A stretch of DNA of 64,000 nucleotides from an uncultured Bacilli bacterium (GCA_910576925.1 CAJTKB010000002.1:419-64418), one strand, 5' to 3'. Shown: positions 2,800-61,181, counted from the first letter of the stretch. Translations and numbers: made by a program. The notes: a model not told the origin generated them from the sequence alone.

Positions 2800-4335
2800 T
2801 TATCTACTTTTTCTAAATACTTTACCTAAATACTTTTTCAATAAATTTACATAATAATTAAAATTATCTGTCTTATAAAAGATTAATGCTAATATAAAAT
2901 TAGGTATAGTTAAACATAAAATAGTCTTAATAATTAACTGTATATATATATTATCAAAATTAATAAACATAGACAAGTAATAACTTCCACTAGCAATTAT
3001 TATAAAAAGTAAAATATAACCACTAGTTTCTTTAAAATAAGAAATATAATCTCTATCAAACAATTTCTTATATACATACTTTGGATAACTATAACACCAA
3101 AGAGTAAGACCACTAACAATAGTTCCCATAAAAACCCCAGCAAAACCAAATATTTTAAGTAATATATAACTAGCAACTATATTAGTAATAGCTTCAACTA
3201 AAGGAACAAATCTATCCTCATAAAAAATGCCTGCTGACTCTTTAAATACCATATAACTATTACGCATAGACTTCTGAAAATAATTAAATACTAATACAAT
3301 TAATATAAGATGAGCTAAAACATACTCCCTACCCAACCATATAATTATAAAATCATCCATAATTATCAAAATACTAATAGCAGAAAATGAAGCTACCCAA
3401 AAATTTAAAAATCTAATTTTTTTAAAAACAGAATAATTCTTTTTCTTATTATCTTCAACTAATAAATTACCAACACTAGAAGTAACAACACCAATAACTT
3501 GTCCAAACAATATATTAACAGCATTAATAATCAAATAATAATTAGAATACATTCCAACTTGTACAATACCAATGAACTTAGATATTAATATATTATCAGT
3601 ACCATTAACAAAAAAACCACCTATCTTATGAAAAAACAAAGCTCCAACTTTTTTAAATATATCTCTTTTAGTATCATCATCCAAATCTTCTTTTTTATTA
3701 ATAAATGGATACATCATATTAGCAACAACCGATACTACAATATTTTCAATAATTCTCATAATAATTTTAATTAATAAATATAAATAATAATTCTTTGTTT
3801 TAACTAATATTATAGTTTGAAATAAATTTAAAAACGTAAGATAAAGAATATGAATAACATTAACTATATAATTTTTTTGATAAGCATTAATAATCGATCT
3901 TTTATAAGATAAAATATAAGAAAAGAAAATATCAATTACAAATAATATATATACAAAGTTTAAGTTAATATCAACAGTTACATCATTAATCAAATATCCT
4001 AAAAATGGTGTAATAGATAGTCCAACCAGTAATACAATTATTGAAATAATATTATAGCACTTTTTATAAAAATATAATAAAGCGCATATTTTCTTTTTAT
4101 CATTATCAAAAACAGGTTTATATAAATTATATATTATAGCAGAACCTACCCCTAATTCTACTAAACCAAGCATTGATATTATATTGTTAAATAATCCATT
4201 AATACCTAAATACTCCTGTCCTAAAGTTTTAACAAATACAAATTGTGCTATTAATCCAATCAAAATAGTCAAAAAATTTGATATAAAAGATATTAGAATA
4301 TTTTTTATTGAATTTTTAGTCCTCATTTTCTTCAC
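2800..4335 (-). CDS. wzx: polysaccharide flippase (Wzx/MOP family)
   Basis: 511-aa polytopic membrane protein with about 12-14 TM segments, located inside a glycosyltransferase cluster. Confidence 0.7.
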   Translation of the reverse strand: MKKMRTKNSIKNILISFISNFLTILIGLIAQFVFVKTLGQEYLGINGLFNNIISMLGLVELGVGSAIIYNLYKPVFDNDKKKICALLYFYKKCYNIISIIVLLVGLSITPFLGYLINDVTVDINLNFVYILFVIDIFFSYILSYKRSIINAYQKNYIVNVIHILYLTFLNLFQTIILVKTKNYYLYLLIKIIMRIIENIVVSVVANMMYPFINKKEDLDDDTKRDIFKKVGALFFHKIGGFFVNGTDNILISKFIGIVQVGMYSNYYLIINAVNILFGQVIGVVTSSVGNLLVEDNKKKNYSVFKKIRFLNFWVASFSAISILIIMDDFIIIWLGREYVLAHLILIVLVFNYFQKSMRNSYMVFKESAGIFYEDRFVPLVEAITNIVASYILLKIFGFAGVFMGTIVSGLTLWCYSYPKYVYKKLFDRDYISYFKETSGYILLFIIIASGSYYLSMFINFDNIYIQLIIKTILCLTIPNFILALIFYKTDNFNYYVNLLKKYLGKVFRKSR

Positions 4336-5404
4336 CTAATAGACTACGAATATACTTTTCAAACTCTACTAATGATTTATTTAATCCCTTTTCACTAATA
4401 GATTTATTACCTATCTTTGCTATTTCTATTCTCTTTTCGTTATTATCAAATAAATATTTCACATTACTAACCAAAGAATCTACATTAGATATTTCTGATA
4501 TAAGGGCATTATTATTATTAGCATATTCCATAATACCTTGACAATTTGTCGTAACTAAAGTACAACCACAAGCCATTGCCTCCATTCCAGGAAGACCAAA
4601 TCCTTCACTTAAACTACTACATAAAAATACAGCACTATTATTAAGAATATTTATAACCTCATCCTCACTAGCATTTCTCGTATATTTAATCCAACTAGGT
4701 AAGTCTTTAGGTCTCTTAGGACTACCATAAATAGAACAATCCATATCTGGGTATTTTTCCTTTAATTTATATATAGCACTTAATCCATAAATAGAGCCTT
4801 TAACCTTAGCCTTATGATATAAAAGTGCTATTGAATGATTTTTTCTATTTTCAATACTATTTATAATCTTAAATTTATTTAAATCTATCCCATTAGAAAT
4901 TAGTTTACTATCACTATTAGAACTTTCATCGACTATTTTCTTTAACCATTTAGAAATAACAATATTATTCATTCCTAAATTATATGAATTCTTCAAATCA
5001 GCATCTGTTGTTCCACCCCACTTTTCATATCCTTGAATAAAGTAGACTTTTACTCCCTTATTAATAGGAAAATCATAAACATATTTTGCAGTCTCATATG
5101 CCGTTGCTACACTTATATCAGCATTTCTTACTAATCTTTCATCAAAATTATTAACTACTACTTTTTTTATAGACTTATCTAATTTAAACCATTTAGGAGT
5201 AAATAAAACTATTATTTTTCTCAAAAGTAATGCTACACTCTTAGGAATTTTCTTACCATTCTTACCATCTTTACCATCATAATAAATACATACATCATAT
5301 CCATTCTTACATAAATAATTAGCATACTGATATACCATCTTATAACCACCAATAATTCGTAAAAAAACTCCTGGTAAATAGAAATTAATTTTCAACTTCT
5401 TCAC
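4316..5404 (-). CDS. glycosyltransferase family 4
   Basis: Contains the E-x7-E type motif EGFGLPGMEAMACGCTLV, which is typical of GT4. Confidence 0.8.
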   Translation of the reverse strand: MKKLKINFYLPGVFLRIIGGYKMVYQYANYLCKNGYDVCIYYDGKDGKNGKKIPKSVALLLRKIIVLFTPKWFKLDKSIKKVVVNNFDERLVRNADISVATAYETAKYVYDFPINKGVKVYFIQGYEKWGGTTDADLKNSYNLGMNNIVISKWLKKIVDESSNSDSKLISNGIDLNKFKIINSIENRKNHSIALLYHKAKVKGSIYGLSAIYKLKEKYPDMDCSIYGSPKRPKDLPSWIKYTRNASEDEVINILNNSAVFLCSSLSEGFGLPGMEAMACGCTLVTTNCQGIMEYANNNNALISEISNVDSLVSNVKYLFDNNEKRIEIAKIGNKSISEKGLNKSLVEFEKYIRSLLGEENED

Positions 5405-48973: not shown

Positions 48974-49279
48974 CTATTCATTAATAAATCCATTTTTATA
49001 TTCTTCTTTACCTTGACGCCAAACAACTCTTGAAAATTCGTGCATAGTCATCAAAATTCTATACTTGTGATATGCCCAATTCTCAAAAGATGTCTTCTTT
49101 GTATCTATTAATGTGCAATACTTAGCACTATTTAGCATAATCTCGTTCCACCTATCAGCTAAAAGTAAACATTCTTTAGCTAAATCGTATGCTAATTCTA
49201 TATCTTCAGGATTTAATCTATCAAATATCTCTTTTTTATCGTTATATTGTTTTATATCTTCTTGTAGTTGTTCTAACAT
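48974..49279 (-). CDS. hypothetical phage protein
   Basis: ORF. Confidence 0.3.
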   Translation of the reverse strand: MLEQLQEDIKQYNDKKEIFDRLNPEDIELAYDLAKECLLLADRWNEIMLNSAKYCTLIDTKKTSFENWAYHKYRILMTMHEFSRVVWRQGKEEYKNGFINE

Positions 49280-50067
49280 TCTATTTCCTCTATATCATCA
49301 AATGACTCTTCTTCATTATCTTCAAATACTTTTTCTATTGTTTTTTCATAGTAATCATTATAAAAGTTAGCTAGTTCTTCTCTAAACTTTGAAAAATCAT
49401 ACTTTTGATTTTCGTCATCTAATAATTTGGAAGTTAGTGGAGATAAGAATTGTGTGTCTATTCCCATCAGTTGTTGTTTTAAATCACTGTAAGTTTCCAT
49501 ATGCAAATTATTTATTGCTAAAGCTATTTTTATCATTTCAATGCCAGGCAAGATATATCCTCTCTTTTGGTATTTTATCGTTCTATATAATGAACAAATA
49601 GGATATTCTGTTCCAGGATTAAATCTTAACCTTTTTTCAATATTGTCTGTTAAAAAATATTTATCTAAATAGAATTGTCTATTTTTAAAACTGTAAGCTC
49701 CCATACAACAATGAAAATCAAAATAATCAAAAGTTCTCTGTATATTTTTGTTGCAAAATCTTTCATATTTGATTATTTGAATTTTAATTTTTTTCTTATT
49801 CTCTTTTGAATTTTGTTTACGTACAAGTGAATAAGCATTATGAGAAACAACTTTTACTTCAAACTCTAATTTCTTTAGTTCATCTACAATTTTATGTGGA
49901 TTATTTTTGTTAGTACTATAAATATCATAATCATTTATAGGTACGTGATTAAATACTGATACTATTGCTCCACCACAACAATAACAATCATACTTTTCTA
50001 AAACGTTTATTATATCATTATCTAATTCTTTTAATAATCTAGATTTTTGTACTATATATTCTTTCAT
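49273..50067 (-). CDS. candidate nucleotidyltransferase-fold protein
   Basis: CCGGAIVSVFNHVPINDYDIY fits the hG[GS]-x9-13-DhD pattern of Pol-beta-type nucleotidyltransferases. Confidence 0.35.
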   Translation of the reverse strand: MKEYIVQKSRLLKELDNDIINVLEKYDCYCCGGAIVSVFNHVPINDYDIYSTNKNNPHKIVDELKKLEFEVKVVSHNAYSLVRKQNSKENKKKIKIQIIKYERFCNKNIQRTFDYFDFHCCMGAYSFKNRQFYLDKYFLTDNIEKRLRFNPGTEYPICSLYRTIKYQKRGYILPGIEMIKIALAINNLHMETYSDLKQQLMGIDTQFLSPLTSKLLDDENQKYDFSKFREELANFYNDYYEKTIEKVFEDNEEESFDDIEEIEC

Positions 50068-55293: not shown

Positions 55294-55683
55294 TTGGAAG
55301 GAGGTATTACTTTGAAATTAAAGCAAGATTGTATTAGAGATACACTTTTGTTCCTTGAAAAAAATATGTCTAGAACTGGTTTCTTTAGTAGTCATTCAAT
55401 TCAATTAGATAATTTTTCAACAGAAGATATTGATTACACCGTTGAAAAATTAAGTGAAGCTGGGTACTTAACTCTTGCCTCAATATATTGTGATGGTCAT
55501 ATTTTAATCAGATGCATAACCTATGATGGGCACCAATTTCTAGATAATATTCGTGATGATAAAGTTTGGGCTAAAACAAAGTTAGTGTTATCAAAATTTT
55601 CATCTACTTCTATGTCATTTGTTCAAGAAGTAGCATCACAAGTTATATCAAATATCATTAGTAACAGTTTATACAAAAAGTAA
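55294..55683 (+). CDS. DUF2513-like phage-associated protein
   Basis: N-terminal LKQDCIRDTLLFLEKN resembles the DUF2513 start (..CIRDILL..E). The gene is oriented against the surrounding early operon. Confidence 0.45.
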   Translation: MEGGITLKLKQDCIRDTLLFLEKNMSRTGFFSSHSIQLDNFSTEDIDYTVEKLSEAGYLTLASIYCDGHILIRCITYDGHQFLDNIRDDKVWAKTKLVLSKFSSTSMSFVQEVASQVISNIISNSLYKK

Positions 55684-55894: not shown

Positions 55895-56113
55895 CTATTC
55901 TTTTTGCTCATAAAATTTTGTCCAATCTAATCCTAAGATACTGGCTATCCTTTTTGCTAATTTAGGTTTGGGAGTTCTTTTTCCTCTTTCCCACCAAAAT
56001 ATAGCTTGCTGTGTAACTCCTACTTCTTTAGCGAGTTGTGGATAAGTGAAACCTCTATCAATTCTTGCTTGAATTAGCCAATGCCTGACTGGTTCTGTTG
56101 ATCTTCCTGCCAT
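55895..56113 (-). CDS. Cro-like XRE HTH regulator
   Basis: 72 aa with an HTH (FTYPQLAKEVGVTQQAIFWWERGKRTP). It is divergent from the cI-like gene. Confidence 0.6.
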   Translation of the reverse strand: MAGRSTEPVRHWLIQARIDRGFTYPQLAKEVGVTQQAIFWWERGKRTPKPKLAKRIASILGLDWTKFYEQKE

Positions 56114-56368
56114 TTAATCACCTCCTTGATTTCTGTAACTTATTGTTGTATAATTTAGTTGTCTATTTTTTAAATAGATAAAAAACTTATCGTGGTATAA
56201 ATTAAATATTATCTTTCTAAATTACCATTTTATTTTTTTATTAGTGGCAATAAGAAAAAATGAAAAGTATATTTAAAAAAGGATTAAGTTTTTTTAAAAA
56301 TCTTTTTGCTAATGGAATAAGTATTATTATCATAATTAGTAACAATAACACCATTAATAAGAAGTGAC

Positions 56369-56380
56369 CTTGATATCAAG
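56369..56380. promoter_or_regulatory. perfect 12-bp palindrome CTTGATATCAAG in the cro-cI intergenic region, with a partial copy CTTGATATC at 56399-56407. Candidate operator.
   Basis: Read directly from the sequence between the divergent repressor genes. Confidence 0.4.
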
Positions 56381-56566
56381 TTAGTTTACCAGACAGAGCT
56401 TGATATCTTTTTTTATACAACAATTTTTGTAATCTTGCGTATAGCTTGATTACATATTTATCATACAACAAGTTGTTTCTTATGTCAATAAAAAAAAGTA
56501 ATTTAATTATAACGAATTGTTTATAATTGTAATTTTGTTGTATTATAAGCGCAAGGAGGTATCTTT

Positions 56567-56926
56567 ATGTTTGGAGAAAGACTAAAATATTTACGAGAAA
56601 ACAAAAACTTACTTCAAAAAGAATTAGGAGATGCTTTAAATGTTACTTCTCAAACTGTGAGTGGCTGGGAAATTAATAGAACAAAACCAGATTATGATAT
56701 GTTGGTTACTATAGCAAATTTTTTTGAAGTTACTATTGACTATTTATTAGGTAATGAGATGAAAGCAACTAAAATTGAAAATGAATTAAAAGAAAAAGAA
56801 GCGTTGAAACAGTTATTAATAAAAAATGGATATATGAAAGAAAACGAAAATTTAAGCGACGAGGAATTAAATAAGCTTATGAAATTTGTGGTTAATAATA
56901 AAGATATATTGAAAGGAAATAAATAA
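56567..56926 (+). CDS. CI-like XRE-family repressor
   Basis: HTH (LLQKELGDALNVTSQTVSGWE). The RBS is AAGGAGG. It is divergent from the cro-like gene. Confidence 0.7.
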   Translation: MFGERLKYLRENKNLLQKELGDALNVTSQTVSGWEINRTKPDYDMLVTIANFFEVTIDYLLGNEMKATKIENELKEKEALKQLLIKNGYMKENENLSDEELNKLMKFVVNNKDILKGNK

Positions 56927-57726
56927 TGATGATTTCAAAAAAGAAGAATGGATTAAAGTCCTCAAATGCATCAAGTATTGAAGGAAAAAATATTGAAGGC
57001 AGAACGATAATTTCTTCTAAATGGATTATTGATTATTTATTAAAATTAATAGATAATAATCTTAATTGTGAATTATATACTTTTATAGAATTTTTTCCCA
57101 TATATAAAGCAAAAATTAAAAGTTTAATCAAATATAAAGTCTCTGAAATACCCGAAAAGTTTTTAACAAAACCAGATATCAACGTTATTATTGCTTTTAT
57201 TGAATATCTAAAATCTGATATAGACAAAGAATACAAAATGGATATATATGTAAATTTAATTATGAAAAACATAGATGTTAGAAATAAGAAAATAATTCAT
57301 AATTCTTTCTTATCAATTATTAAAGATTTAAATTATAATGATATCTTGCTATTAGATAATTTACGAAAAATAAAAAAAGAAGATATTATAAGCTTAAATG
57401 TAATAGATAACAATTCAAATATTATTGATATATTTAATTGTGAGAAATACTTTACCTTCATAAAACATAATATAAATTTAGATGAGTTGACAATTTCTAT
57501 TAATAACCTAATACGATTAAATTTAATTTCTCTTTTTATGTCATCGCAAAAAAAAGAGAACATTTTAGAAAACTGGATAAATATCTTGCATTCAGAAACA
57601 ATAAAGAACATTTCTAAGGAACAGAAATGTGATTTACAATTTCAAGCAAAGCAAAGTGGTTATATATCATTAACTAATTTAGGAGAGATTATTGCAAATC
57701 TATGTATTATAGAAAATTATATTTAA
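56926..57726 (+). CDS. hypothetical protein translationally coupled to the repressor (candidate superinfection-exclusion / abortive-infection factor)
   Basis: 266-aa ORF whose ATG overlaps the cI stop (TAATG). I recognise no domain. Confidence 0.4.
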   Translation: MMISKKKNGLKSSNASSIEGKNIEGRTIISSKWIIDYLLKLIDNNLNCELYTFIEFFPIYKAKIKSLIKYKVSEIPEKFLTKPDINVIIAFIEYLKSDIDKEYKMDIYVNLIMKNIDVRNKKIIHNSFLSIIKDLNYNDILLLDNLRKIKKEDIISLNVIDNNSNIIDIFNCEKYFTFIKHNINLDELTISINNLIRLNLISLFMSSQKKENILENWINILHSETIKNISKEQKCDLQFQAKQSGYISLTNLGEIIANLCIIENYI

Positions 57727-57792
57727 TATTTCTTACTATAAAAGCACTAAAATGAACTGAACCCCAAAAGTTGGACAGTTTATAAATAGTTT

Positions 57793-58690
57793 CTAATTAA
57801 AGGATTGTAACCTGTAATTTACGGGAGATAGTCCTTTTAATTTTACTTTAATTCTATCATAATTATAATATTTAATATAGTCATCGATTGCTAAAATTAG
57901 TTCATCTATTGTTTTATAACTTTCTTCTTGGTCATAAAACATTTCAGTTTTAAGAAGTCCAAAGAAATTCTCCATCATTCCGTTATCCATGCTGTTTCCT
58001 TTTCTAGACATGCTTTGCTTAATACCTTTATTCTTTAATCGTTGTTGATAAGAAGCATGCTGGTATTGCCAACCTTGATCAGAATGAAATATTAAACCTT
58101 CTAAATTTCTATCATTAAATGCTTTATCTAACATATCATTTATTTGTTCTAGATTTGGAGATTTAGATGTATTGTAAGATACTATTTCACCATTAAATCC
58201 GTCTAGTATTGGTGATAAATAAATCTTTTCTCCACGAAGATTGAATTCAGTAACATCTGTATACCATTTCTGATTTGGTTTAGCTGCAGAGAATTCTCGA
58301 TTAATATAATTATCTGCTATTTTACCAACTGTTCCTTTATATGATGAATATTTTCTTTTGTTTCTTTTTAAAGGTTTTAATCCTAACTTCACCATTATTC
58401 TATAAACTTTCTTGTGATTAACATTATAACCTTGATTTCTAAGTTCTAATGTTATCCTACGATAGCCATATCTTTCTTTATTATTTATAAATATTTCTTT
58501 AATTTTATCAATTATTTCATTATTTTTTTCATCTTTATCTGTTTTAGATAAAGTATAATAATATACTGATTTTGCTAAACCAGATATCTTTAGAAGAATC
58601 TTTAATGAATATGTTAGCCGAAGTTCACTTACAACATTTACTTTTTCTTCTGTTGTTGATTCTTCCTTGCTTGAACAACGGCTCTCAATT
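57793..58690 (-). CDS. IS3-family transposase OrfB (DDE integrase core). The N-terminus extends upstream of the first Met and is expressed by -1 frameshift from orfA.
   Basis: KERYGYRRITLELRNQGYNVNHKKVYRIM upstream of the annotated Met, together with HSDQGWQY, matches the IS3 OrfB pattern. Confidence 0.75.
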
Positions 58691-59144
58691 TTTTTGAGTA
58701 TTCTAGCTCAGCCTTCAAATATAAATTCTCTTCTTGTAATCGTTTTATAGTTTCATCTTTAGTTTCTTTAGATTTTTTCTTCGTTACTTTTGGCATAGTT
58801 GGACGCCCTCGCTTTCGTTCAACTATATTATAACCATTTTCTTTATATTTTGAAATCCAGTTTGATAGCATTCCATGACTAGGTAATCCTAAATCTATAG
58901 AAACTGCCCAGGTAGATTCCCCTTTATTTAAAACTCTATTTATTGCATCTATTTTGAAAGTTAAAGAATATCTTTTATTTTTCTTTTTTTGCACTATCTT
59001 GTATCCATGTCTCTCAATTAATCTAACTAAATATTTCACTCGTCTTGCATCAATTTTATATTCTTGATGAACAGTTTCAAGAGAGACACCTTTTTTTCTT
59101 TTATTATATATTTCAACTTTATCCTCATAACTTAATTTAGACAT
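58638..59144 (-). CDS. IS3-family transposase OrfA (HTH)
   Basis: 168 aa with an HTH and a leucine-zipper-like C-terminus, ending near the slippery site. Confidence 0.75.
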   Translation of the reverse strand: MSKLSYEDKVEIYNKRKKGVSLETVHQEYKIDARRVKYLVRLIERHGYKIVQKKKNKRYSLTFKIDAINRVLNKGESTWAVSIDLGLPSHGMLSNWISKYKENGYNIVERKRGRPTMPKVTKKKSKETKDETIKRLQEENLYLKAELEYSKKLRAVVQARKNQQQKKK

Positions 59145-59552
59145 ATAAAAACCTCGCTTCTATTTTGTCCAAGAAACGGGGTTCATATCAAAAAACTAGT
59201 GCTTTTTACTTTGTTCTATTAACCACTTAATAAATTGTTTGTACACTCCCTGCTTTTTTAAATAATTATAGAATTTATCAAAATTATTCAACTTAATCAC
59301 CCCCTGTTCTATTTTAGATAAATATTTAATATTTTTTGGAAATGATATATAATCGTACTCATCAACTTGTAGTTTTCTGCATTTCTAGCAACTTACAATA
59401 TCATAAAACAAATGAAAATACGTTTTTTTACCTTTAAAGCTTAAAAATAGACCTTCAAAATAAGTGAAGGTAAAAAATTAATGGAAATAATTACAAAAAA
59501 AATAATTAATAAGTTTTGCTATAATTTTTTTAGAATGAAGAGGTTATAGTTT

Positions 59553-60203
59553 ATGAGAATTGTAGTTATTGAAGATAATAAAAGAGTTAACTCATTGATC
59601 TGTGAGTATGTAAATGAAATAGTAAGTAAAAGTTGTTTAGATTATCAATTATTAAATTTTTATAGTTTTAATGATAATCTTAGAAAAATTATTTATAATT
59701 GCGATATTAAAATTTATATTGTAGATTTACAGCTCAATTCTAAAAGTGGATATAATATTTGTAGAGAAATACGAGAAGGAGCTAATGATTGGAAAAGCAT
59801 TATAATTATTTGTTCAGCTTATAATCAAAAAGAAGAAATTATATCTTTAAGACTATCTATTTTTACTTATGTATCCAAACATATTAATTTTAAAAGTAAC
59901 ATCAAAGATAGCATAAATAAAGCTATCCAAATTTTATCTAGTAATAACATTGTAACAATAGATAAAAATACAAAAATATGTATTAATGATATTTGCTATA
60001 TTGAAAAAATTAAACAAACTAAGTATTGTAAAATAGTTACTCTAGATTCTAAAGAATATAAAATAATGAAAACTATTAAAATGTTGAAAAAGGAACTAAA
60101 TTTTAAACAGATAAGAAACTATTTGCTAATTAACGATAATAATATTAGAATAATAGATAAACAGGAGATCACCTTTATAAATAAAATTAGTATTAAATAT
60201 TAG
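59553..60203 (+). CDS. LytTR-family response regulator (REC + LytTR), orphan
   Basis: MRIVVIEDN with the IVDLQL acceptor Asp region, and a C-terminal LytTR pattern (ICYIEK...FKQIRNYLLINDNNI). Confidence 0.6.
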   Translation: MRIVVIEDNKRVNSLICEYVNEIVSKSCLDYQLLNFYSFNDNLRKIIYNCDIKIYIVDLQLNSKSGYNICREIREGANDWKSIIIICSAYNQKEEIISLRLSIFTYVSKHINFKSNIKDSINKAIQILSSNNIVTIDKNTKICINDICYIEKIKQTKYCKIVTLDSKEYKIMKTIKMLKKELNFKQIRNYLLINDNNIRIIDKQEITFINKISIKY

Positions 60204-60218
60204 AAAGGGAATAAAAAT

Positions 60219-61181
60219 ATGAGTACAGAATTAGAACAAAGAAATGAAATAATATTATTTGAAAATCAAGAAGTCAAACTTGAAGTAAATATGCAAGATG
60301 AAACTGTTTGGTTATCTTTAGAACAAATGGCTAGATTGTTTGACAGAGATAAATCAGTAATTTCAAGACATATAAGAAATGTTTTGGAAGAAGAGTGTGA
60401 CAATTCAACTGTTGCAAATTTTGCAACAGTTCAAAAAGAAGGTAATAGAGAAGTTACCCGAGAAATAGAATATTATAATCTGGATGTAATAATTAGTGTA
60501 GGTTATCGTGTTAAAAGCAAAAATGGTATTTTATTTAGAAAATGGGCTAATAAGGTATTAAAAGACTATATGATACAGGGATATTCAATTAATAAGCAAA
60601 GACTTGAATATTTAGAAAAAACAGTTAAGCTAATAGATATTGCTAACCGTGTAGATAGCGAATTAAAAAGTAATGAAGCTAGAGAGATTATTAAAGTTAT
60701 AAATGAATATTCTAATGCTCTAAATTTATTAGATGAATACGACCACAGAACTTTAACTAAACCTAAAGGAACATTAAATAATGATGTAATAATAAAATAT
60801 CAAGATTGCTTGAATATAATTAATCAAATGAAATTCAAGAACGATAGTGATATTTTTGGATTAGAGAGAAACAATGGCTTAGAAAGTATTATAAACAACG
60901 TATTCCAATCATTTATGGAAAACGATGTCTACCCTACCATTGAAGAAAAAGCCTCTAATTTTCTGTATTTAATTGTTAAAAATCACGTATTCATAGATGG
61001 TAACAAAAGAATAGCTGCTACCCTATTTATTTACTTCTTACAATTCTATAATATTCTTTATAAGAATAATAAACAAGTAATAGATAACAACACATTAGTA
61101 GCAATAACGTTATTAATTGCAGAATCTAATCCTAAAGAAAAGCAGATTTTAATTGATTTAATTATGAATTTTCTAAATTAA
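60219..61181 (+). CDS. RhuM-family protein with a C-terminal Doc-type Fic domain
   Basis: NLDVIISVGYRVKSKNGILFRKWANKVLKDY is the RhuM signature. HVFIDGNKRIAATLF matches the Doc/Fic HxFx(D)GNKR motif. Confidence 0.7.
   Translation: MSTELEQRNEIILFENQEVKLEVNMQDETVWLSLEQMARLFDRDKSVISRHIRNVLEEECDNSTVANFATVQKEGNREVTREIEYYNLDVIISVGYRVKSKNGILFRKWANKVLKDYMIQGYSINKQRLEYLEKTVKLIDIANRVDSELKSNEAREIIKVINEYSNALNLLDEYDHRTLTKPKGTLNNDVIIKYQDCLNIINQMKFKNDSDIFGLERNNGLESIINNVFQSFMENDVYPTIEEKASNFLYLIVKNHVFIDGNKRIAATLFIYFLQFYNILYKNNKQVIDNNTLVAITLLIAESNPKEKQILIDLIMNFLN

What the first reader, a model, noticed from the sequence alone, without database searches (positions are those of the whole stretch)
56926..57726. 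Unknown 266-aa gene translationally coupled to the cI-like repressor (candidate exclusion/Abi factor)
Its ATG overlaps the repressor stop (TAATG), so it is expressed in lysogens together with cI. This is the classic position of rexAB/sie-type superinfection-exclusion genes. The protein has no feature I recognise and no obvious TM. It is followed by a terminator hairpin that an IS3 element has disrupted.
Basis: inference. Interest (0 to 1): 0.55.

Follow-up and report, generated by a model that had tools for sequence, protein, structure and literature searches.

The report
Abi-alpha defence gene in repressor operon

Summary
A 266-codon ORF (56926..57726, +) starts at an ATG that shares its A with the TAA stop of a 119-aa Cro/CI-type HTH gene (56567..56926). 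Its 10-bp terminator hairpin is split in the loop by an intact 1,438-bp IS3-family element (57753..59190).

The protein is not unknown. It matches Pfam PF14337 Abi_alpha (E 6e-20, 72.5 bits against a cutoff of 29) and PADLOC PDC-S47 (E 5e-22), and it keeps the family's near-invariant residues. The founder, Abi-alpha (EF2833) of E. faecalis V583 prophage 6, aborts infection by a Picovirinae phage through premature lysis. AbiAlpha is reported as the second most common defence system in sequenced phage genomes.

This copy is divergent: its nearest relative among 1.84 billion representative proteins is 38% identical. Its wiring is uncommon. In 92 distinct related loci the gene is usually a lone opposite-strand moron or sits inside a type I R-M operon, and only one other locus has an HTH gene directly upstream. 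Here it sits where rexAB sits behind lambda cI.

The AlphaFold model (pLDDT 81) has a conserved helical N-terminal core and a hypervariable winged-helix-like C-terminal domain.

Verdict: a new member of a known kind. The molecular mechanism is still unknown for the whole family. Interest is low to moderate.

The parts
56926..57726 (+). Abi-alpha family gene, 266 aa. Residues 1-24 are predicted disordered. Residues about 31-121 form a helical N-terminal domain, with 81-140 the most conserved stretch. Residues about 127-260 form a winged-helix-like C-terminal domain with hypervariable stretches at 141-190 and 201-250.
56567..56926 (+). 119-aa Cro/CI-type HTH protein with no S24 peptidase domain. 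It is the only candidate maintenance repressor of the prophage and the first gene of the two-gene operon.
   Evidence: HTH_3 E 8e-14, Phage_CI_repr E 2.6e-5. PHROG 8/3/4 transcriptional regulator or repressor. AAGGAGG Shine-Dalgarno element 7 nt before the ATG.
56924..56928 (+). TAATG stop/start overlap between the repressor gene and the abi-alpha gene.
   Evidence: Read directly from the sequence.
56114..56566 (.). 453-bp switch region between the divergent cro-like and cI-like genes. It holds four copies of TTGTTGTAT (56143+, 56415-, 56463-, 56535+). Three of them abut -10-like hexamers, including TATTAT at 56541-46, 20 nt before the repressor ATG. A strong leftward promoter-like site lies at 56488..56460.
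   Evidence: Motif search: 8 copies in the window against 1.4 expected, 4 of them in this region. Promoter scan. Sequence. Function is inferred.
55895..56113 (-). 72-aa cro-like HTH gene that heads the leftward early operon.
   Evidence: HTH_3 E 1.3e-11. Gene order: DnaB_2, RecT and other early genes follow on the same strand.
57740..57749 (+). 5' arm (AAAAGCACTA) of the operon's terminator hairpin.
   Evidence: Sequence. Fold of the reconstructed empty site: -10.4 kcal/mol, z -3.8.
59197..59206 (+). 3' arm (TAGTGCTTTT) of the same hairpin, now 1.4 kb away.
   Evidence: Sequence. Fold.
57753..59190 (-). IS3-family insertion sequence, 1,438 bp, inserted in the loop of the terminator hairpin. 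It has 25-nt imperfect inverted ends, is flanked by AAA, and carries orfA at 58638..59144 and an orfB (rve) ending at 57793.
   Evidence: Inverted repeat I3. Pfam HTH_Tnp_1 and rve. orfB frame open for 300 codons and overlapping orfA. The insertion is present in every contig that reaches this point.

Best explanation
This is a prophage-encoded abortive-infection gene of the Abi-alpha (PF14337/DUF4393, 'AbiAlpha') family, placed directly behind the prophage's CI-like repressor gene.

Shown:
- The ORF is intact and overlaps the repressor stop by one base.
- It is a full-length family member with the conserved residues.
- It is predicted to be soluble, with a conserved helical N-terminal core and a winged-helix-like C-terminal domain whose exposed stretches are the most variable part of the family.

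Inferred:
- In the lysogen the repressor promoter makes one cI/abi-alpha mRNA, and ribosomes finishing cI restart on abi-alpha, so the protein is present whenever immunity is on.
- Synthesis stops when the prophage is induced, which would spare the phage's own lytic cycle.
- When a sensitive unrelated phage infects, the variable C-terminal domain recognises a phage component (nucleic acid or protein), and the conserved core then disturbs the timing of lysis.
- The cell therefore lyses or dies before progeny are complete, as measured for the founder EF2833 (lysis about 10 min early, efficiency of plaquing below 1e-8).

The IS3 insertion removed the 3' half of the terminator but left the coding sequence untouched.
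For: Family membership:
- Pfam Abi_alpha 72.5 bits against a gathering score of 29, covering the whole model. PADLOC PDC-S47 E 5e-22.
- Exhaustive phmmer found 251 relatives, nearly all 250-290 aa. A profile search found 1,521 hits; all 120 listed carry PF14337.
- The near-invariant P83, H125, N194, L195, R197, L198, T250, G253 and C260 are all present.
- BLASTP against the 80alpha/phiNM1 DUF4393 protein gives 30% identity over 140 aa, E 8e-15.

Function of the family:
- EF2833, cloned alone with its own promoter, gives a typical Abi phenotype with premature lysis (PMC6356687).
- The phiNM1 homologue makes up 42% of prophage protein in lysogens.
- AbiAlpha is the second most common defence system in phage genomes and is enriched in temperate phages.
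- At least 13 of 70 genomic relatives sit inside type I R-M operons next to hsdS or hsdR. Six flanking genes at five of these loci were confirmed by Pfam; the other loci were assigned from the size and position of the flanking ORFs.

Expression logic:
- TAATG overlap and SD-like AAAGGA.
- Divergent cro-like gene and early operon.
- In phage relatives the gene is usually oriented against its lytic neighbours (flanked by opposite-strand ORFs in 16 of 22 distinct loci) and, in two annotated streptococcal phages, like cI and int.

Against: - No experiment exists on this protein or on any relative closer than 38% identity.
- The N-terminal 60 residues are poorly conserved and do not keep the residues that are near-invariant there in the profile-search alignment A2. 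They are modelled with low confidence.
- tblastn of this protein against 50,697 phage records found nothing at E<=1e-3, so it is an outlier within the family.
- The mechanism of Abi-alpha is unknown even for the founder, and premature lysis was shown for one phage-host pair only.
- The promoter of the operon is predicted only weakly: no consensus -35 was found.
- The loss of the terminator's 3' arm could destabilise the mRNA.
- The roles assigned to the two domains are inference from conservation, not from any binding data.
Confidence: 0.72

Rival explanations
1. The pair is a toxin-antitoxin-like module. The 119-aa HTH protein would neutralise or tightly repress Abi-alpha as well as act on DNA, and defence or addiction would follow from loss of the labile HTH partner.
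For: - Overlapping stop and start codons are typical of TA operons.
- The HTH protein gives weak, sub-threshold hits to HTH antitoxin families: spr1629, HipB, MqsA, PezA.
- One other locus, L121 from Acetobacterium tundrae, has a Cro/C1 HTH gene 8 nt upstream of an Abi_alpha gene.
Against: - About 90 of 92 distinct family loci have no adjacent same-strand HTH gene.
- EF2833 alone on a plasmid protected cells, and the strains carrying it grew and could be assayed.
- The HTH gene faces a cro-like gene and an early operon across a 453-bp region with repeated motifs, as a phage switch does.
- No other repressor candidate exists in the prophage.
Confidence: 0.1
2. It is a regulatory DNA-binding protein of the prophage itself, such as a second repressor or an accessory factor for the switch or for excision, and not a defence protein.
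For: - The gene sits in the immunity operon.
Against: - Relatives occur inside type I R-M operons, where a phage-switch role makes no sense, and as isolated morons far from any switch.
- The tested member is an Abi protein.
- The stretches that are hypervariable across the family fit recognition of varied targets better than recognition of a fixed operator.
Confidence: 0.08
3. It is a decaying or poorly expressed remnant. The IS3 insertion and the divergent N-terminus would mark a gene no longer under selection for function.
For: - The terminator is split by the IS.
- The N-terminal 60 residues are divergent and modelled with low confidence.
- The nearest relative is only 38% identical.
Against: - The frame is intact over 266 codons in a sequence of about 24% GC.
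- Every near-invariant family residue is kept.
- The identical protein is found on 13 contigs from several samples.
- The IS lies outside the coding sequence.
Confidence: 0.07

Closest known systems
Abi-alpha (EF2833) of Enterococcus faecalis V583 prophage 6, founder of Pfam PF14337 / DUF4393 (Lossouarn et al. 2019, PMC6356687)
   Same: Same Pfam family and similar length (266 against 272 aa). Single soluble protein with no recognisable enzymatic domain. Encoded by a siphovirus-type prophage. Its weak structural relative is PDB 3H35, also the top Foldseek hit here. Expected to be made in the lysogen.
   Different: EF2833 is reported to have its own promoter with an experimentally mapped transcription start site, whereas this gene overlaps the repressor gene. 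The sequence here is an outlier, at most 38% identical to any relative, with a divergent N-terminus. I could not obtain the EF2833 sequence, so no pairwise figure is given. There is no phenotype for this copy.
DUF4393 protein of S. aureus phages 80alpha, phiNM1, phi80, 88, 53, 85, 77 (UniProt A0EWI8 in phiNM1)
   Same: Direct BLASTP relation: 30% identity over 140 aa, E 8e-15. Made in lysogens, where it accounts for 42% of phiNM1 prophage protein.
   Different: In the staphylococcal phages it is a lone gene on the opposite strand within the replication module, several kb from cI. No resistance phenotype was found reported for it in the papers read here.
RexA/RexB of phage lambda
   Same: Same position and the same expression logic: immediately downstream of the repressor gene in the immunity operon, giving abortive exclusion of other phages in lysogens (established knowledge; also summarised in PMC6356687).
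   Different: No sequence or fold relation. Rex is a two-protein system with a membrane ion-channel component, RexB. Here there is one soluble protein with no membrane segment.
AbiZ of Lactococcus lactis
   Same: Shares the founder's phenotype: accelerated lysis of infected cells (discussed in PMC6356687).
   Different: No sequence similarity, as stated in PMC6356687. It is proposed to act with the phage holin.
PrrC anticodon nuclease within the EcoprrI type I R-M locus
   Same: At the family level, many Abi_alpha genes sit next to hsdS or hsdR in type I R-M operons, the position PrrC occupies (my own knowledge of EcoprrI).
   Different: No homology. PrrC is an ABC-ATPase/nuclease. The copy in this window is not next to any R-M gene.

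Membership tests
Abi_alpha (Pfam PF14337 / DUF4393; DefenseFinder 'AbiAlpha'; PADLOC PDC-S47) | Match to the family profile above the curated threshold, over the full model | tested here: met
   72.5 bits against a gathering score of 29, E 6e-20, model positions 10-196 of 196. PADLOC PDC-S47 E 5e-22.
Abi_alpha (Pfam PF14337 / DUF4393; DefenseFinder 'AbiAlpha'; PADLOC PDC-S47) | Conserved sequence motifs: IPxExLxEP, VHPSFVEIIKQLSPxDA, NLxRLGLI, LTxxGxxFxxxC | tested here: met
   The window protein has IPEKFLTKP, IHNSFLSIIKDLNYNDI, NLIRLNLI and LTNLGEIIANLC. The near-invariant P83, H125, N194, L195, R197, L198, T250, G253 and C260 are all kept.
Abi_alpha (Pfam PF14337 / DUF4393; DefenseFinder 'AbiAlpha'; PADLOC PDC-S47) | Single-domain architecture of about 250-290 aa with no membrane segment | tested here: met
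   266 aa. Relatives are 250-290 aa. Highest 19-residue Kyte-Doolittle mean is 1.24.
Abi_alpha (Pfam PF14337 / DUF4393; DefenseFinder 'AbiAlpha'; PADLOC PDC-S47) | Conserved N-terminal segment (about the first 60 residues of the profile-search alignment A2) | tested here: not met
   The window protein has different residues at the columns that are near-invariant in alignment A2. pLDDT is 36-65 over residues 1-60. This segment lies outside the Pfam model, which starts at residue 65, so it does not define the family.
Abi_alpha (Pfam PF14337 / DUF4393; DefenseFinder 'AbiAlpha'; PADLOC PDC-S47) | Prophage or defence-island context, with orientation and expression of lysogenic type | tested here: met
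   The gene lies in the lysogeny module of a prophage of about 40 kb, on the same strand as cI and the serine integrase. Expression itself was not tested.
Abi_alpha (Pfam PF14337 / DUF4393; DefenseFinder 'AbiAlpha'; PADLOC PDC-S47) | Abortive-infection phenotype: normal adsorption, death of the infected cell, reduced centres of infection, premature lysis | not testable with these tools
   Shown only for EF2833 (PMC6356687).
Lambda RexAB-type exclusion | Two components, including a membrane channel protein, with homology to RexA/RexB | tested here: not met
   One soluble protein. No Rex hit in Pfam, PHROGs or PADLOC. Only the position behind cI is shared.
MarR-type winged-helix transcription factors | Sequence membership in a wHTH regulator family, and a canonical helix-turn-helix preceding the wing | tested here: inconclusive

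The most novel reading that the evidence does not exclude
Abi-alpha proteins could be portable 'guard' modules. A conserved helical effector core would be fused to a hypervariable winged-helix sensor, and the module would be plugged behind whatever the cell needs guarded: type I R-M operons in chromosomes (the PrrC position) and, in this prophage, the repressor gene itself. On this reading the one-base overlap is more than convenient co-expression. It would set a fixed cI:Abi-alpha ratio, and Abi-alpha would fire when an incoming phage interferes with the immunity region or the repressor, for example through an anti-repressor. That would make it a guard of prophage immunity rather than a generic Abi protein.
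Probability: 0.08. Interest if true: 0.6.

Novelty: new member of a known kind. Interest (0 to 1): 0.25.

Why it matters
The gene adds a very divergent, previously unnamed branch (at most 38% identity to anything in 1.84 billion representative proteins) to a defence family that is common in temperate phages but whose mechanism is still unknown.

It also gives a natural case in which the gene is wired into the repressor operon, which could help test how its production is kept compatible with the phage's own lytic cycle.

The family-level points found on the way may help those who work on its mechanism. These are the winged-helix-like variable C-terminal domain and the frequent embedding in type I R-M operons.

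For genome annotation the lesson is simple: a gene coupled to a prophage repressor is a good defence candidate, and here a routine profile search names it.

Tried and rejected
- A word-indexed homology search with the single protein found only the protein itself. An exhaustive search was needed to find relatives.
- tblastn of the protein against 50,697 phage records gave no match at 1e-3. The family link to named phages was made through the 80alpha-type protein instead.
- Sequence searches against PDB chains, with the single protein and with the family profile, gave nothing meaningful. NCBIfam has no model for it.
- Silent cassettes or inverted repeats that could mark a programmed inversion were looked for because DUF4393 is reported as 23-fold enriched among inversion targets (PMC9881135). 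None was found in 54-64 kb.
- Scans of GTDB genomes: the A1 alignment had no usable pattern, and the single protein found no relative, so the source species is not a representative genome. The A2 alignment worked.
- The host could not be named.
- The afdb50 fold library was unavailable. BFVD gave one uncharacterised hit.
- No Rfam family and no tRNA were found in 54-64 kb and 50-64 kb respectively.
- The IS has no close copy in the plasmid collection.
- No paper mentions PDC-S47, and no paper found clarifies the mechanism beyond Lossouarn 2019.
- I could not retrieve the EF2833 sequence, so there is no direct pairwise comparison with the founder.

Full report
**1. The observation**

The window holds an ORF at 56926..57726 on the + strand (266 aa). 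It begins at the first start codon after an in-frame stop. Positions 56924-56928 read TAATG. The TAA ends a 119-codon ORF (56567..56926), and the ATG of the next ORF shares its A with that stop. A second ATG follows directly, and AAAGGA lies 8 nt upstream. The local GC content is about 24%. By my own estimate from base composition, about 9% of random codons would be stops, so an open run of 266 codons is not a chance event. The protein also has hundreds of homologues.

Fourteen bases after the stop, AAAAGCACTA (57740-49) is the complement of TAGTGCTTTT at 59197-59206. Between the two arms lies a 1,438-bp element (57753..59190) with these features:
- 25-nt TG...CA inverted ends;
- an HTH_Tnp_1 orfA and an rve orfB;
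- an orfB frame that stays open for 300 codons and overlaps orfA, as in intact IS3-family elements.

With the element and one AAA removed, the site folds into a 10-bp stem at -10.4 kcal/mol (z -3.8; none of 200 shuffles folds as well). Every contig that carries the gene and reaches this point also carries the insertion.

**2. What the gene is**

The protein is not unknown. It matches:
- Pfam PF14337 Abi_alpha at E 6e-20 (72.5 bits against a gathering score of 29), from residue 65 to 260 and over the whole model;
- the PADLOC candidate system PDC-S47 at E 5e-22;
- PHROG 2232, of unknown function.

The word-indexed search found only the protein itself. An exhaustive phmmer search of 1.84 billion representative proteins found 251 relatives at E<=1e-3, almost all 250-290 aa long. 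The nearest is 38% identical and the rest at most 36%. A profile of 40 of them retrieved 1,521 proteins, and all 120 listed are annotated PF14337.

The residues that are near-invariant in the family are all present in the window protein: P83 in IPxExLxEP, H125 in VHPSF, N194/L195/R197/L198 in NLxRLGLI, and T250/G253/C260 in LTxxGxxFxxxC. A direct BLASTP against the DUF4393 protein shared by S. aureus phages 80alpha, phiNM1, 88, 53, 85 and 77 gives 30% identity over 140 residues, E 8e-15.

The first 60 residues are the exception. They do not keep the residues that are near-invariant there in the profile-search alignment A2, and they are modelled with low confidence.

**3. What is known about the family**

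Lossouarn et al. (PMC6356687) showed that ef2833 of E. faecalis V583 prophage 6, cloned alone with its own promoter, blocks the Picovirinae phage Idefix. Adsorption is normal, infected cells die, centres of infection drop to about 10%, plaquing falls below 1e-8, and lysis comes about 10 min early. They named it Abi-alpha, noted that it corresponds to DUF4393, found homologues mostly in prophages of Gram-positive bacteria, and left the mechanism open.

In S. aureus phiNM1 lysogens the DUF4393 protein is the most abundant prophage protein, at 42% (bioRxiv 10.1101/2025.10.23.684294). A 2026 survey of phage genomes lists AbiAlpha as the second most common defence system after R-M, with defence systems enriched in temperate phages (bioRxiv 10.64898/2026.05.06.722914). 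DUF4393 genes are also reported as 23-fold enriched among targets of programmed inversions (PMC9881135). I found no inversion cassette here.

**4. Surroundings in the window**

The upstream 119-aa protein is a Cro/CI-type HTH protein (HTH_3 E 8e-14; Phage_CI_repr E 2.6e-5) without a peptidase domain. It faces a 72-aa cro-like HTH gene (55895..56113, -) across 453 bp. The cro-like gene heads a leftward operon with DnaB_2/DnaD-like, RecT and other early genes, followed by the morphogenesis genes.

The motif TTGTTGTAT occurs four times in the intergenic region, against 1.4 expected for the whole window. Three copies abut -10-like hexamers, one of them 20 nt before the repressor ATG. No other repressor candidate is present.

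Downstream of the IS lie a receiver-domain-like gene, a RhuM/Fic gene and a large serine recombinase, all on the + strand. The gene therefore occupies, with respect to the repressor, the place that rexAB occupies behind lambda cI.

**5. Is that placement usual?**

I looked at 22 distinct loci from viral contigs and encoding contigs, and at 70 distinct loci from GTDB species genomes.
- In phages the gene is typically alone, flanked on both sides by genes of the opposite strand. In two annotated streptococcal prophages it is oriented like cI and int but sits within the early region.
- In chromosomes at least 13 of 70 loci have the gene next to hsdS or hsdR of a type I R-M operon. Six flanking genes at five loci (L102, L105, L128, L159 next to hsdS or hsdR; L129, L135 with hsdS downstream) were confirmed with Pfam. 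The rest were assigned from the size and position of the flanking ORFs.
- Only one other locus (L121, Acetobacterium tundrae, also a prophage region) has a Cro/C1-type HTH gene just upstream, 8 nt away on the same strand.

The repressor-coupled wiring is thus uncommon but not unique, and it does not change the kind of system.

**6. Structure**

With a 90-sequence alignment, AlphaFold2 gives mean pLDDT 80.7 and pTM 0.77. Residues 1-24 are disordered, 31-121 form a helical domain, and 127-260 form a helix/beta-hairpin domain.
- Foldseek's only significant PDB match is 3H35 (ABO_0056, uncharacterised; E 4e-4), the same weak relative noted for EF2833.
- No Pfam HTH family matches this protein, and a long beta-hairpin stands where the second HTH helix would be, so this is a fold resemblance only.

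Across the family the most conserved stretch is residues 81-140. Residues 141-190 and 201-250 are hypervariable around the conserved NLxRLGLI and LTxxG islands. There is no membrane segment.

**7. How it most likely works**

Shown: an intact, full-length Abi-alpha family gene overlaps the repressor gene of a prophage.

Inferred: it is co-transcribed and translationally coupled with the repressor. It is therefore present in lysogens and no longer made after induction. On infection by a sensitive foreign phage it causes abortive infection, most likely through mistimed (early) lysis as in the founder. The variable winged-helix-like domain would act as the recognition part and the conserved helical core as the acting part.

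My confidence is about 0.95 for family membership, about 0.7 for a defence role of this copy, and about 0.35 for premature lysis as the specific outcome.

Rivals are a TA-like pairing with the HTH protein, a regulatory role in the phage's own switch, and a decaying gene. Each is disfavoured, mainly by the family's contexts, the founder's single-gene phenotype and the intact conserved residues. Details are in the rival entries.

**8. Novelty and verdict**

This is a new, very divergent member of a known and common defence family, in an uncommon but not unique position behind the repressor. A specialist would not be surprised. The open question, how Abi-alpha works, is not made more testable by this copy than by the enterococcal or staphylococcal ones. 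Interest 0.25.

Noticed in passing
Loci L102, L105, L111, L116, L119, L128, L142, L148, L157, L159 (abi gene at about 3800-4650, hsdR from about 4600); L129, L135, L155: In at least 13 of 70 distinct genomic relatives the Abi_alpha gene lies inside a type I R-M operon. It sits directly after an hsdS gene and/or directly before an hsdR gene of about 1,100 aa, or with hsdS downstream. From my own knowledge, this is the position PrrC holds in EcoprrI. Lossouarn 2019 does not mention it in the sections read. It may relate to the reported enrichment of DUF4393 among programmed-inversion targets (PMC9881135).
   Followed up: partly
window 56114-56566: The cro/cI intergenic region is long (453 bp). 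It holds four copies of TTGTTGTAT (56143+, 56415-, 56463-, 56535+), three of them fused to -10-like hexamers (TATAAT, TATGAT, TATTAT). The strong leftward promoter-like site (56488..56460) and a rightward one (56126..56154) face each other about 300 bp apart. This suggests convergent rather than back-to-back switch promoters.
   Followed up: partly
window 56260-56414: A 35-codon ORF on the + strand (MKSIFKKGLSFFKNLFANGISIIIIISNNNTINKK, 56260..56367) lies inside the switch region. It is followed by a hairpin, GATATCAAG / CTTGATATC, and a run of seven T. It has a weak ribosome-binding site. It could be a small hydrophobic peptide or only the leader of a terminated transcript.
   Followed up: no
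window 57753-59190: The IS3-family element looks intact: 25-nt inverted ends, orfA, and an orfB frame open for 300 codons and overlapping orfA. It sits exactly in the loop of the terminator hairpin, flanked by AAA. No close copy exists in the plasmid collection.
   Followed up: yes
window 55294-55683: A DUF2513 (PF10711, E 3e-22; PHROG 585) gene lies on the + strand inside the leftward early operon. It is a second gene oriented like the lysogeny genes, in the kind of position that Abi_alpha occupies in other phages. Its function is unknown.
   Followed up: no
window 59553-61181: Two more cargo genes lie between the IS and the serine integrase. One is a 216-aa protein with a weak receiver-domain match. 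The other is a 320-aa RhuM/Fic-DOC protein that matches the PADLOC candidate PDC-S23 at E 2e-123. The lysogeny module may therefore carry several defence or toxin genes.
   Followed up: partly
window 49273-50067 (-): A 264-aa early-region protein carries a precomputed Pfam hit to PF26128 (Gad2). By my own reading of the name, that would be a candidate anti-Gabija counter-defence gene in the same prophage.
   Followed up: no
L121 3190-4582 (Acetobacterium tundrae DSM 9173): This is the only other locus found with an HTH-then-Abi_alpha pair: an 80-aa HTH_26 gene 8 nt upstream, facing a divergent 70-aa HTH gene. A separate 181-aa cI-like gene with its own divergent HTH lies 1.7 kb away. In that prophage the pair looks like a module distinct from the main switch.
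   Followed up: partly
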